Virus record (IMG/VR): IMGVR_UViG_3300045988_129107
Length of the DNA: 30,668 bases
Source of the DNA: a virus
Taxonomy: Duplodnaviria; Heunggongvirae; Uroviricota; Caudoviricetes
Strand: one strand, 5' to 3'
The position numbers are program-made. This document shows, piece by piece, positions 15,001 to 18,000 of this stretch. How positions within the stretch are numbered: position 1 is the stretch's first letter; each line of letters starts with the position of its first letter.

Positions 15001-18000
15001 ATAAGAGATTTATTAAATTCGTCCTGCTCCTGAGAGCCTTTATAGTAAGCCAGCCCTAAGACGCCAACGGCTGCTGCGGCCAGGGTAAAAGGATTAATTA
15101 ATCCCAGCACATAAGAACCTACACCTTTGATCGCCGGGCCAATCCCACCGAACATATCTTTTAGCTGGCCGCCCTGCTGCATTAACACCATAAATGGCGA
15201 CTGACCAGTGGACAACCCAACAACAATATCCGTCATTTGTGCAGGCAACATGCGCATAGCAAAAGCCGTTTGTTTTGCCGACATTCCGGTTTTGCTTAAT
15301 TGCGATTGAGTAACCTCAAGCTCACTCCGCATAGCACGAAGTTTTCCAGAAAGCTCCTCATACATTTCAGGAGAAAGCATCCCCTTAGCTTTTGCTTCAT
15401 TGAGCTGTTTCTGTTGTTCTACCAGACGATTAAAAGCAGTTCCGACAGGATCAAGTTGAGCAATCAGACGTTGCAAAGCAGCAACCTGTTCATCATGTGC
15501 TTTTGCTGCTTCTCGCTCTGCCTGAGCCTCTCCGGTAAGCTCTCGCCGTGTTTCCTGTATTTTTCGGCTATAATTCTCAAACTGAGAACCATTTATTTTC
15601 CCGGATGCAAACGCAGCATTAAGTTCATCCTGCTGTTGTTCAAGATTTCTTAGCGCCGCAGCCAGAGGGTCGATCTTGTCCAGCATTCTTTGAAAGACCT
15701 GAGCCTGCGCTTCCTGCTGGGCGGCAGCAAGTTTTCCGGCCTTCTCGGCTTCTCTCTGCGCTTGCGCAACCCCGCTCAATTCCTCTGTGGTTTCATTAAG
15801 TTTACGGACAAGAAATTCATATTCTTCTTTATCAATAAGCCCTTTATCGAAAAATTTCTTTAATTCAGAATAGCGTCGACCGACAGTATCAATTGCGGCA
15901 CCAACTGGATCAATAGCTGCTTTTAATTTTGCGAGCGCGTTCTTCTCATCTTCTGTTGCCTTAGTCACTTTCCCTGCGCTATTTGCAGCAGTTTCCCCAG
16001 CCTGCGTCATTTTGACTAATGAGGAGGCCAGATTGTCAGCATTATTTTTCGCTCCAGTGCTATCAATAATTATTGCGAGACGCGAGGTTTGCTCTGCCAT
16101 TCATTAAAACTCCTGACAACAAAAAACCCACCGAAGTGGGTTTCAGGCGACATAATAGTAGATATAGCGATTACGAGGCCACGCAATGCTTTTCTCCAGG
16201 AGCATCATCGATTTAATTAAAGACACCATCACATCTCTGTAACAGAGAGTACGTAATTAACAACTACACACATTGCTCCTGAAAATACTGGTCATCCAGT
16301 GCAAAGATCACTGCTTCAAATTCATCGCGCTCAATCAATACCGGATGAGTGGCTAAATATTCATTTATCTCTGTCAGAGATAAAGGCAAAGGCACCCCAG
16401 TCATTCCAGCATAACGTCGGGCACGGGATATTACCGAATAGGCGTACAACAATTCCTTAAGCACCGGGTCTATTTCTGGTTCCGGTATCGGTGGCAACCT
16501 GAGTTTTTCTCGCTTCCATCTTGCCTTTTCACCCTTTTCTCCCCCGAACTCCGATAACCACCGCTGGGCGGCTATGGCTTTTTTATCGTATCCTGCTTCT
16601 GCTGCTCTTTACCCTGGGCGATGCTGGCTGCTTCTGCAAGGATCTGCCAGTACAACTCCGGATTCTGCTTAAGCAGCGCGATCCCTCGTTCTGGCGTATA
16701 TTCCAGTGCAACCTCAACACCATCAACCAGTTCACCAACCCCTTTCCAGTCTTTCAGCAGATAACGAGCAGCATTATCAATGAGTAAATCATCAACAGAA
16801 TCCACCTCGGAAACCTTTGCAATATCAAACTCCTTCGTTCCGACGTGCAAACTGGCATCCATTTTCTCAATGTGGCGACGGATTAATGCATTACGGGAGC
16901 GATACTGATCGTTATCGCTGCTTGCCACCAACAGTTTTAACCCGTCTACAGGTTTTAAGTCCTTCATTGGGGTAAACCAGCGTTCACCACCGATGATAAT
17001 TTTCTGATTAAGAATAAACATCCATAACCTCATTCAATGCGCCCCCCTGTAGTGCAGTACCACAGGGGGAATAACGGAAAATCAACTAATCGCCTCAGCA
17101 CTGGCTTTTGCGATCACGGCAGCCGGGGAGGCTTTTTTTCTGGTTATCGTAGGTGCTTCATCTGCTGCGGTAATGCTCAATTGAACCTGGATAATGTCGG
17201 TATTACCCCCATCAGGCCATTCACCTGACATCTGAACCTTCGGGAAACTGAAAGTGTATGCCCCCTCTCCATTCGAAAGCGTGAAGCTGAACGGAACTGT
17301 TTCTCCAGTCAGTGTTTTACTCCAGATTTCCCACGCGGCTTTAGACCATGAAAGCGTCACCGTACCGGACGGTGTAAAAGTAGTCGGAATATTTGCTCCT
17401 GCATAAGGCGAGCCAGTCCCGATACAACGCTGTGTCTGGAGTTTGTTATCGAACTGAATATCAAAACTGTCGATACAAAAACCGTTACCTCCGGCAACAC
17501 CATTCAGGCTTACTGCTGAAACCTCCTTAAACGAATAACGTAGCTTTCCTGCACTATCCACAGGTTCGCCTTTGATAAAATTCGTATCATCGGCCTTTGA
17601 TTCCCAGTCCAGCCCGGCAAAGGTTACGGTCGCCGTAATATCGCCGTCGTTAGGGATCTGCATTTTCCATGAGCCAACCTGCGCTCCTCTGACAACAGAG
17701 GCAATTCCGACATCGGACGCATAGGTCGCCAGAGAAAATGTTATTCGCTCATTCCCCATTGTCAGAGAATCACCTGACCATTCCGCGCCGAAACAGGATG
17801 CAAGAAAATCATCATGTTGACCCCAGCGAAATTTGGTACCAACATCACCGCCAACATCCACAGTGCCAGGCGTCGCCCCCTGAGCCATCCGGGAGCCACC
17901 AATCTCATTATTTTCGCCTTTATTCTGGGTGGGTTTTACTCCCCAGCTTGTGCGTTTTAATAAACTCCAGTCACCACTTGCTGGTGTGGTGCCTGCAACT

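What the first reader, a model, noticed from the sequence alone, without database searches (positions are those of the whole stretch)
16264..17033. Programmed -1 frameshift site for the tail assembly chaperone pair
The G-like ORF ends ...ACG ATA AAA AAG CCA TAG, containing the classic slippery heptamer A AAA AAG (16578..16584) two codons before the stop. The -1 frame is open from there through a 26-codon linker into the 77-codon downstream ORF, which otherwise has only a TTG start and no independent RBS. This reproduces the conserved G/GT mechanism of long-tailed phages.
Basis: partly seen in the sequence, partly recalled or inferred. Interest (0 to 1): 0.5.

Follow-up and report, generated by a model that had tools for sequence, protein, structure and literature searches.

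The report
Tail chaperone G/GT frameshift, Rac-type prophage
This is the ordinary programmed -1 ribosomal frameshift that long-tailed phages use to make two tail-assembly chaperones from one gene, here in a Rac-type E. coli prophage (the ydaY gene), where it is well supported by comparison but missing from public annotation.

Summary
On the minus strand a 149-aa ORF (17021..16572, the full-length form of E. coli ydaY) ends ...ATA AAA AAG CCA TAG. A_AAA_AAG (16584..16578) is in the X_XXY_YYZ register. The -1 frame is open from there for 106 codons, to the stop at 16266..16264, giving a 252-aa fusion. The pair lies between the tail tube gene and the tape measure gene.

- All 168 related loci (108 distinct sequences) carry a shifty heptamer at the homologous codon: 166 A_AAA_AAG and 2 G_GGA_AAG.
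- The zero-frame stop moves from 0 to about 105 nt downstream, while the -1 peptide stays conserved.
- Codon-position variability and the synonymous/non-synonymous ratio switch from frame 0 to frame -1 exactly at the heptamer.
- 70 of 108 sequences have no start codon in the first 36 codons of the -1 frame.
- Relatives at about 30% identity in Pseudomonas and Acinetobacter phages keep the two-frame layout.

No conserved RNA stimulator was found.

Verdict: a real, ordinary example of a textbook mechanism. GenBank and RefSeq do not annotate it. From memory, ydaY was already proposed as a frameshift candidate in 2003. Interest is low.

The parts
16572..17021 (-). G-like tail assembly chaperone gene, the full-length ydaY homologue (149 aa, stop TAG at 16574..16572). 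An alternative upstream ATG lies at 17033.
16578..16584 (-). Slippery heptamer A_AAA_AAG, in X_XXY_YYZ register.
   Evidence: Conserved at the homologous codon in 166 of 168 loci and replaced by G_GGA_AAG in the other 2. The three synonymous positions inside it vary in 0-1% of distinct sequences, against a mean of 35% for third positions upstream.
16498..16578 (-). 27-codon linker readable only in the -1 frame (AIAAQRWLSEFGGEKGEKARWKREKLR). It contains no start codon.
   Evidence: Purifying selection acts in the -1 frame: synonymous/non-synonymous codon differences are 859/636 in frame -1 against 218/1399 in frame 0.
16264..16497 (-). T-domain core (77 codons plus stop TAG at 16266..16264). 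This is the ORF that mechanical ORF calling starts at TTG 16497.
   Evidence: phrog_1189, E 1.8e-36, and weak matches to the C-terminal part of phrog_313 and to PF23812 Phage_TAC_18. The AF2 model is all-helical, pLDDT 78.
16264..17021 (-). Predicted GT fusion CDS: join(17021..16578, 16578..16264) on the minus strand, 252 aa.
   Evidence: tblastn with the fusion matches 48 phage records, in two pieces wherever both the G and T parts are matched.
16551..16577 (-). Local hairpin directly abutting the heptamer (CCAUAGCCGCC-CAGC-GGUGGUUAUCGG). It is specific to the E. coli lineage and is at most a possible stimulator.
   Evidence: -14.7 kcal/mol, z -1.18, not significant. It is not conserved in the family.
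17082..18044 (-). Tail tube gene, upstream neighbour and presumed binding partner of the T domain.
   Evidence: PF18906 Phage_tube_2, E 1.6e-31.
12867..16100 (-). Tape measure gene, downstream neighbour and presumed binding partner of G.
   Evidence: TMP_2 (E 5e-82), TMP_4 and Tape_meas_lam_C.

Best explanation
This is a programmed -1 ribosomal frameshift that produces two tail assembly chaperones from one start codon.

Most ribosomes translating the ydaY-like gene read ...ATA AAA AAG CCA and stop at TAG, giving the 149-aa G protein. A small fraction slip. With the two tRNA-Lys on AAA and AAG in the P and A sites, both move back one base to AAA AAA. Translation then continues in the -1 frame with GCC (16578..16576) for 104 more residues, giving a 252-aa GT protein.

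Shown here: the signal, its register, its conservation, and the frame switch in the pattern of selection.

Inferred by analogy with lambda G/GT (review PMC5009743):
- G and the G part of GT coat the tape measure protein.
- The T domain recruits the tail tube protein so that the tube polymerises around the tape measure.
- Neither protein ends up in the virion.
- The G:GT ratio matters for assembly.

The signal appears to be the heptamer alone, with no conserved stimulator. Efficiency is therefore probably low, from a few tenths of a percent to a few percent.
For: - Sequence: heptamer in register, open -1 frame, no start codon before TTG 16497.
- Synteny: terminator, tube, G, T, tape measure.
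- 168 of 168 related loci (108 distinct) from Escherichia, Shigella, Citrobacter and uncultured viral contigs, plus one metagenome contig, keep a shifty heptamer at the homologous codon: 166 A_AAA_AAG and 2 G_GGA_AAG (L091, L102).
- These two heptamers have near-identical measured efficiencies in E. coli: 0.29/4.3/39% and 0.28/3.8/43% with no stimulator, the IS911 stimulator and the IS3 stimulator (Sharma et al. 2014, PMC4066793 Table S3).
- The zero-frame stop lies 0, 3, 21, 75 or about 105 nt after the heptamer in different lineages, while the -1 peptide KKA.(E/A)AQ.WL.EFGGE.GEKA.W.REKL is conserved.
- Mean column variability by codon position: upstream, 0.036/0.073/0.354 in frame 0; linker, 0.117/0.121/0.313 in frame -1. 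Synonymous/non-synonymous codon differences are 679/259 (frame 0) against 8/956 (frame -1) upstream, and 218/1399 against 859/636 in the linker.
- 70 of 108 distinct sequences have no ATG, GTG or TTG in the first 36 codons of the -1 frame.
- Gene finders rarely call T: 23 clusters with ragged starts, against more than 145 for G.
- Distant relatives (Klebsiella 66%, Erwinia 56%, Pseudomonas 32%, Acinetobacter 34%) match the fusion in two frames, with G_GGA_AAG, G_GAA_AAG or GCA_AAG+TAA at the same spot.
- G matches phrog_313 'Tail assembly chaperone'. That profile is 258 positions long; the G part aligns to positions 15-149 and the T part weakly to 180-246.
- Other E. coli prophage chaperone pairs use the same heptamer and are accepted as true cases: ECs1801.
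- Reporter assays on HK97-like chaperone genes gave 6-7% frameshifting (PMC3711429).
Against: - No protein-level evidence was available here, so the fusion product and its abundance are not shown.
- No conserved downstream structure or upstream Shine-Dalgarno-like stimulator was found. A bare A_AAA_AAG gave only about 0.3% in one reporter context, so efficiency could be very low.
- The T domain's link to known T domains is weak: PF23812 scores below threshold, Foldseek against viral models finds nothing significant, and there is no similarity to lambda-type Phage_tail_T.
- No GenBank or RefSeq record examined annotates a joined CDS.
Confidence: 0.9

Rival explanations
1. T is an ordinary separate gene, translated from its own start (TTG 16497 or another codon), and the heptamer is incidental.
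For: A 77-codon ORF with a TTG start exists. Some GenBank and RefSeq records call a separate small 'hypothetical protein' there.
Against: The TTG is present in only 35 of 108 distinct sequences, and 70 of 108 have no start codon in the first 36 codons of the -1 frame. No Shine-Dalgarno sequence precedes it (sequence). The 27-codon linker upstream of the TTG is under protein-level selection in the -1 frame starting right at the heptamer. Annotated starts are ragged, giving 60-138 aa.
Confidence: 0.03
2. The frame change is made by RNA polymerase slippage on the A run, so that some mRNAs lose one A, rather than by the ribosome.
For: The site contains six consecutive A residues. Transcriptional slippage on long A/T runs is known in bacteria (review PMC5009743).
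Against: Six A residues is short for efficient slippage by E. coli RNA polymerase (established knowledge). Relatives carry G_GGA_AAG, G_GAA_AAG or GCA_AAG at the same codon. These have only 3-4 A residues but keep the tRNA re-pairing logic, with A_AAG in the A site.
Confidence: 0.04
3. The arrangement is a decayed or incidental frameshift: a once-fused gene broken by a mutation, or an error-prone site with no use, with T non-functional.
For: The E. coli K-12 Rac copy is in a defective prophage with a truncated ydaY and a truncated tape measure gene. Many A_AAA_AAG sites in E. coli genes are thought to be incidental (PMC3082878 introduction).
Against: The same break, at the same codon and with a shifty heptamer, occurs in all 168 loci and in relatives at 30% identity. 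T is under purifying selection. In-frame fusions are rare exceptions caused by deletions or indels (P0001, P0002).
Confidence: 0.02
4. T is made by termination at the G stop followed by re-initiation nearby.
For: The G stop lies only 3 nt after the heptamer in most lineages.
Against: No start codon lies near the stop in the -1 frame. The distance from heptamer to stop varies from 0 to about 105 nt, while conservation of the -1 peptide begins at the heptamer and not at the stop.
Confidence: 0.01

Closest known systems
Phage lambda G/GT tail assembly chaperones (-1 frameshift at G_GGA_AAG)
   Same: Position between the major tail gene and the tape measure gene. A short G ORF with a slippery heptamer near its end. 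T readable only in the -1 frame. Two relatives of this locus use lambda's exact heptamer, G_GGA_AAG. The mechanism and roles are described in PMC5009743.
   Different: The heptamer here is A_AAA_AAG. There is no detectable sequence similarity of G to Phage_TAC_1 or of T to Phage_tail_T, as tested against the lambda-type pair of Sakai prophage Sp9.
E. coli K-12 Rac prophage ydaY (with ynaA)
   Same: It is the same gene: about 98% nucleotide identity, with the same heptamer and an intact -1 ORF. From memory, not verifiable with the library here: Gurvich et al. 2003, EMBO J 22:5941, named ydaY as a new candidate for utilised A_AAA_AAG frameshifting.
   Different: The K-12 copy lacks the first 33 codons and sits in a defective prophage with a truncated tape measure gene. 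The window carries the full-length gene in an apparently complete tail module.
E. coli O157 Sakai prophage Sp9 ECs1801/ECs1802
   Same: A tail assembly chaperone pair with A_AAA_AAG, immediately followed by TAG. Sharma et al. 2014 list it as a true -1 frameshift case. It also has a hairpin plus T-run between T and the tape measure gene.
   Different: It belongs to different protein families (Phage_TAC_1 and Phage_tail_T). BLASTP finds no similarity to the G protein here.
HK97 tail assembly chaperone (PDB 2ob9)
   Different: 9% sequence identity. The similarity is modest and the query is a predicted model (pLDDT 79.7).
E. coli dnaX gamma/tau frameshift
   Same: Identical slippery heptamer A_AAA_AAG, and tandem tRNA-Lys slippage (abstracts).
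   Different: dnaX has an upstream Shine-Dalgarno-like stimulator and a downstream stem-loop, shifts very efficiently and yields a shorter product. This site has no conserved stimulator and yields a longer product.

Membership tests
Phage tail assembly chaperone G/GT pair with programmed -1 frameshift | Located between the major tail (tube) gene and the tape measure gene | tested here: met
   Phage_tube_2 at 17082..18044(-) and TMP_2/TMP_4/Tape_meas_lam_C at 12867..16100(-) flank the pair.
Phage tail assembly chaperone G/GT pair with programmed -1 frameshift | Two overlapping ORFs, the second in the -1 frame and without its own conserved start or ribosome binding site | tested here: met
   no start codon in the first 36 codons of the -1 frame in 70 of 108 distinct relatives. 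The window's TTG is lineage-specific.
Phage tail assembly chaperone G/GT pair with programmed -1 frameshift | Slippery X_XXY_YYZ sequence in register within the overlap | tested here: met
   A_AAA_AAG at 16584..16578, in register.
Phage tail assembly chaperone G/GT pair with programmed -1 frameshift | Slip site and frame transition conserved among homologues | tested here: met
   168 of 168 loci keep a shifty heptamer. Codon periodicity and the synonymous/non-synonymous ratio switch frame at the heptamer. Relatives at 30% identity keep the layout.
Phage tail assembly chaperone G/GT pair with programmed -1 frameshift | G protein has the tail-assembly-chaperone fold or family assignment | tested here: met
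Phage tail assembly chaperone G/GT pair with programmed -1 frameshift | T domain related to known T domains | tested here: inconclusive
   PF23812 Phage_TAC_18 at E 6e-4, 20.3 bits against a cut-off of 27; 7 of 12 homologues match, best 9.4e-6. C-terminal part of phrog_313 at E 0.011. Best Foldseek hit in BFVD at E 0.11. No similarity to Phage_tail_T.
Phage tail assembly chaperone G/GT pair with programmed -1 frameshift | Both G and GT are made at a fixed ratio, both are needed for tail assembly, and both are absent from virions | not testable with these tools
   Requires proteomics and genetics.
Pfam PF27119 Phage_YdaY | Match to the family model | tested here: met
   By proxy only. P0004, 97% identical and 149 aa, and all other G homologues carry a precomputed PF27119 hit. 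The model is absent from the local Pfam copy.
dnaX/IS3-type stimulated -1 frameshift cassette | Downstream stem-loop or pseudoknot 5-9 nt after the heptamer, and/or a Shine-Dalgarno-like sequence 10-14 nt upstream, conserved | tested here: not met
   The consensus fold is -2.25 kcal/mol with no covariation support. Per-sequence z-scores run from -1.4 to +1.2. Upstream AGGA lies only 6 nt away and is not conserved. There is no Rfam match.
Transcriptional slippage site | Long homopolymer run (about 8-9 or more A/T), conserved | tested here: not met
   The run is six A residues. Relatives have GGGAAAG, GGAAAAG or GCAAAG at the same spot.

The most novel reading that the evidence does not exclude
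Across this chaperone family the only invariant element of the signal is A_AAG in the A site. The P-site half varies (A_AA, G_GG, G_GA, C_GC followed by a stop), no RNA stimulator is conserved, and the zero-frame stop wanders. The family could therefore be a natural allelic series showing that a bare Lys A_AAG tetramer is enough to set a usable G:GT ratio. A related possibility is that the hairpin abutting the heptamer in the E. coli lineage is a lineage-specific tuner of that ratio.
Probability: 0.25. Interest if true: 0.3.

Novelty: already known. Interest (0 to 1): 0.15.

Why it matters
The value is mostly practical. The locus occurs in 1075 of 5426 complete E. coli genomes, including the K-12 Rac remnant. 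RefSeq and GenBank annotate it as a shortened 'protein YdaY' plus, at most, an unrelated-looking hypothetical ORF, with no ribosomal-slippage CDS. The 252-aa GT product is therefore missing from the protein databases searched: no full-length fusion appeared among 145 hits.

Annotating it correctly assigns a function to ydaY and to the orphan ORF downstream. It also adds a well-conserved, stimulator-free A_AAA_AAG case to the catalogue of frameshift sites. It does not change the understanding of frameshifting or of tail assembly.

Tried and rejected
- Local Pfam and NCBIfam scans of G gave nothing. The relevant Pfam model, PF27119, is newer than the local copy.
- Profile searches of G and T against PDB sequences gave no meaningful match: none for G, and for T only a chance-level hit at E 1.3.
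- Rfam gave no match in 15900..17300.
- The search for a conserved RNA stimulator was negative. RNAalifold on 17 diverse sequences gave no supported structure. The window's 95 nt fold no better than shuffles, z -0.28. Per-sequence folds of +1..+45 gave z between -1.4 and +1.2. The upstream AGGA is too close and not conserved.
- A combined G+T protein alignment (A3) was misaligned by MAFFT and discarded. G and T were modelled separately instead.
- The T-domain fold search against viral models gave only non-significant hits. Several of the top ones are annotated as tape-measure chaperones, but I do not count that as evidence.
- Attempts to read Gurvich et al. 2003 by PubMed id, PMC id and DOI failed. 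Full-text searches for ydaY with frameshift terms found nothing relevant. The prior-description claim therefore rests on memory.
- I checked whether cluster ECs1801 of Sharma et al. is the same family. It is not.
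Full report
**1. What is in the sequence**

All the genes concerned are on the minus strand. One search gives the codons at the end of the upstream ORF as ...CAG GAT ACG ATA AAA AAG CCA TAG. AAAAAAG occupies 16584..16578, and its first A is the third base of the ATA codon. That is the X_XXY_YYZ register needed for tandem -1 slippage. The stop codon is at 16574..16572.

The frame one base back is open from the heptamer to TAG at 16266..16264. Counting the two Lys codons, this is 106 codons. Upstream of the heptamer that frame is closed after 8 codons, and none of those is a start codon. The first ATG, GTG or TTG in the frame is the TTG at 16497, which is 27 codons after the slip point.

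Homologues all begin at the position of the ATG at 17021 (MFILNQ...), and GAGG lies 6 nt upstream of it. I therefore take G to be 149 aa and the fusion to be 252 aa.

**2. Is it more than chance?**

The heptamer by itself is not. There are 13 copies in the window against 8.7 +/- 3.3 expected from shuffles.

Context is what counts. Among 19 in-register shifty heptamers inside ORFs of at least 100 codons, in all six frames, only three open a long -1 extension. The other two appear to sit in spurious off-frame ORFs that overlap real genes. The one at 20456 lies inside the capsid gene; I infer the same for 27840 without checking it.

**3. Setting**

- Pfam places a tail terminator at 18071..18463, a tail tube protein (Phage_tube_2) at 17082..18044, and a tape measure protein (TMP_2, TMP_4, Tape_meas_lam_C) at 12867..16100, all on the minus strand. 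The ORF pair therefore lies exactly where tail assembly chaperones lie.
- The region is 98-99.8% identical to prophages in 1075 of 5426 complete E. coli genomes, where RefSeq calls the upstream gene ydaY.
- In K-12 derivatives the Rac remnant holds a 5'-truncated ydaY, an unannotated T ORF and a truncated tape measure gene, ynaA.
- None of the records examined annotates a joined CDS.
- A search of 5.8 billion protein clusters with the 252-aa fusion returned only G-sized proteins, apart from two products of deletions or indels.

**4. Comparative test**

I collected 168 analysable related loci from reference genomes, viral contigs and one metagenome contig. G identity goes down to about 60%, and there are 108 distinct sequences around the site.

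- Every locus has a shifty heptamer at the homologous codon: 166 A_AAA_AAG and 2 G_GGA_AAG (L091, L102).
- In E. coli reporters these two heptamers have almost the same efficiency with no, weak or strong stimulators: 0.29/4.3/39% and 0.28/3.8/43% (PMC4066793 Table S3). The replacement therefore preserves function.
- The three synonymous positions inside the heptamer vary in 0-1% of distinct sequences. Third positions upstream vary in 35% on average. In the E. coli lineage the first A is supplied by ATA, the rarest Ile codon in E. coli (established knowledge).
- The zero-frame stop is not fixed. It lies 0, 3, 21, 75 or about 105 nt after the heptamer in different lineages.
- The peptide read in the -1 frame, starting at the heptamer, is conserved.
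- Mean column variability by codon position is 0.036/0.073/0.354 in frame 0 upstream of the heptamer, and 0.117/0.121/0.313 in frame -1 in the 27-codon linker.
- Synonymous against non-synonymous codon differences relative to the window are 679/259 (frame 0) and 8/956 (frame -1) upstream. In the linker they are 218/1399 (frame 0) and 859/636 (frame -1).
- The coding frame therefore changes at the heptamer. In 70 of 108 distinct sequences the first 36 codons of the new frame contain no possible start codon, and the window's TTG is confined to the E. coli lineage.
- Gene finders seldom call T, and when they do the starts are ragged.

**5. Distant relatives**

tblastn with the fusion finds 48 phage records. 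Where both the G and T parts are found, they match in two pieces, that is, in two frames. These include Klebsiella (66%), Erwinia (56%), Pseudomonas (about 32%) and Acinetobacter (about 34%) phages.

At the homologous spot:
- Acinetobacter phage Acba_3 has G_GGA_AAG, 87 nt before its G stop.
- Pseudomonas phages phiPSA1 and Aurca01 have G_GAA_AAG.
- Erwinia phage Gungnir39 has GCA AAG TAA.

The common denominator is A_AAG in the A site. This is the tetramer form of the motif that Sharma et al. describe (abstract). These variants argue against RNA polymerase slippage on the A run, which in any case is only six residues long.

**6. The proteins**

G:
- It matches phrog_313 'Tail assembly chaperone' at E 6e-47. 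That profile is 258 positions long, the length of a GT fusion. G aligns to positions 15-149 and T aligns weakly to 180-246.
- G homologues carry Pfam PF27119 Phage_YdaY.

T:
- It matches phrog_1189 (function unknown) strongly.
- Its match to PF23812 Phage_TAC_18 is below threshold.
- Its model is all-helical, and fold search finds nothing significant.
- It is unrelated in sequence to lambda-type Phage_tail_T.

The G side of the membership test is therefore met, and the T side is inconclusive.

**7. Stimulators**

No conserved downstream structure was found. RNAalifold gave -2.25 kcal/mol with no covariation support, and per-sequence z-scores were around zero. No conserved upstream Shine-Dalgarno-like element is present at a stimulatory distance, and there is no Rfam match.

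The E. coli lineage has a hairpin that starts directly after the heptamer (16577..16551), but it is not statistically unusual. The signal therefore looks like a bare heptamer, and I expect a low efficiency. For comparison:
- The lambda G:GT ratio is about 30:1 (PMC5009743).
- HK97-like chaperone genes gave 6-7% in reporters (PMC3711429).
- A bare A_AAA_AAG gave 0.29% in one construct.

**8. Mechanism**

Shown here: the signal, its register, its conservation, the frame switch in selection, the synteny and the chaperone fold of G.

Inferred by analogy with lambda:
- Most ribosomes terminate to give G.
- A few percent or fewer slip on A_AAA_AAG with both tRNA-Lys and add the T domain.
- G and the G part of GT bind the tape measure protein.
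- T recruits the tube protein.
- Neither protein stays in the virion.

**9. Rivals**

The alternatives are independent initiation of T, termination followed by re-initiation, transcriptional slippage, and a decayed or incidental frameshift. Each is contradicted by the comparative data above. Together I give them about 10%.

**10. Novelty**

The kind is textbook: lambda G/GT, and the conserved frameshift of long-tailed phages. Another E. coli prophage chaperone pair with the same heptamer is listed as a true case.

From memory, and not verifiable with the library here, Gurvich et al. 2003 named ydaY itself as a new candidate for utilised A_AAA_AAG frameshifting. I therefore rate the finding as already known. 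What this work adds is the comparative proof and the observation that public annotation still omits the fusion.

If my recollection of the 2003 paper is wrong, the rating would be 'new member of a known kind'. The interest would stay low either way.

Noticed in passing
window 16101..16263 (minus strand); hairpin 16144..16123: The 160-nt gap between the T stop and the tape measure start holds a terminator-like hairpin followed by a T run (GAAACCCACTTCGGTGGGTTTTTTGTTG), just before the tape measure ribosome binding site. Citrobacter relatives and the metagenome contig L091 (L005-L008, L091) carry extra small ORFs at this spot. Sakai Sp9 also has a hairpin plus T run between T and its tape measure gene. 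The site may be a moron insertion point or an attenuator.
   Followed up: partly
window about 17042..17069 (between the tail tube stop and the G start): A GC-rich inverted repeat (CCCCCTGT...ACAGGGGG) with no T run lies in the short tube-G intergenic region. It might affect mRNA stability or the relative expression of tube and chaperone.
   Followed up: no
window 17139..17133 (minus strand), inside the tail tube gene: An in-register A_AAA_AAA (a run of seven A residues) lies 16 codons before the tube gene stop. The -1 frame adds only 12 codons after the slip site (14 counting the heptamer's two Lys codons) and ends 5 codons before the normal stop, so no new domain would result. It is probably incidental.
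   Followed up: partly
L002 (E. coli 042) 3170..3529; L173 (K-12 derivative DH1) 2493..2852: RefSeq calls ydaY as 119 aa even in genomes that hold the full-length 149-aa gene. This apparently propagates the 5'-truncated K-12 Rac form. The T ORF is unannotated or labelled 'hypothetical protein'.
   Followed up: yes
protein P0001 (E. coli, 240 aa): This is a natural in-frame G-T fusion. It arose from a deletion of 37 nt (inferred from the protein sequence) upstream of the heptamer (...ILAEA|GYDKKAIAAQ...). It would make only a GT-like protein, and by analogy with lambda the prophage should be tail-defective.
   Followed up: no
L176 (Erwinia phage Gungnir39) about 1980..1995; L174/L177 (Pseudomonas phages Aurca01, phiPSA1): Distant relatives have non-canonical slip sites at the homologous codon: GCA AAG TAA (only the A_AAG tetramer, next to the stop) and G_GAA_AAG (P-site re-pairing would need a G:U pair). 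Their records annotate G and T as two separate genes.
   Followed up: partly
window 19890..21122 (minus strand): The capsid protein is of the P22 coat type (PF11651), while the tail module is siphovirus-like with a lambda-type tape measure C-terminus. This is a mosaic head and tail combination.
   Followed up: no
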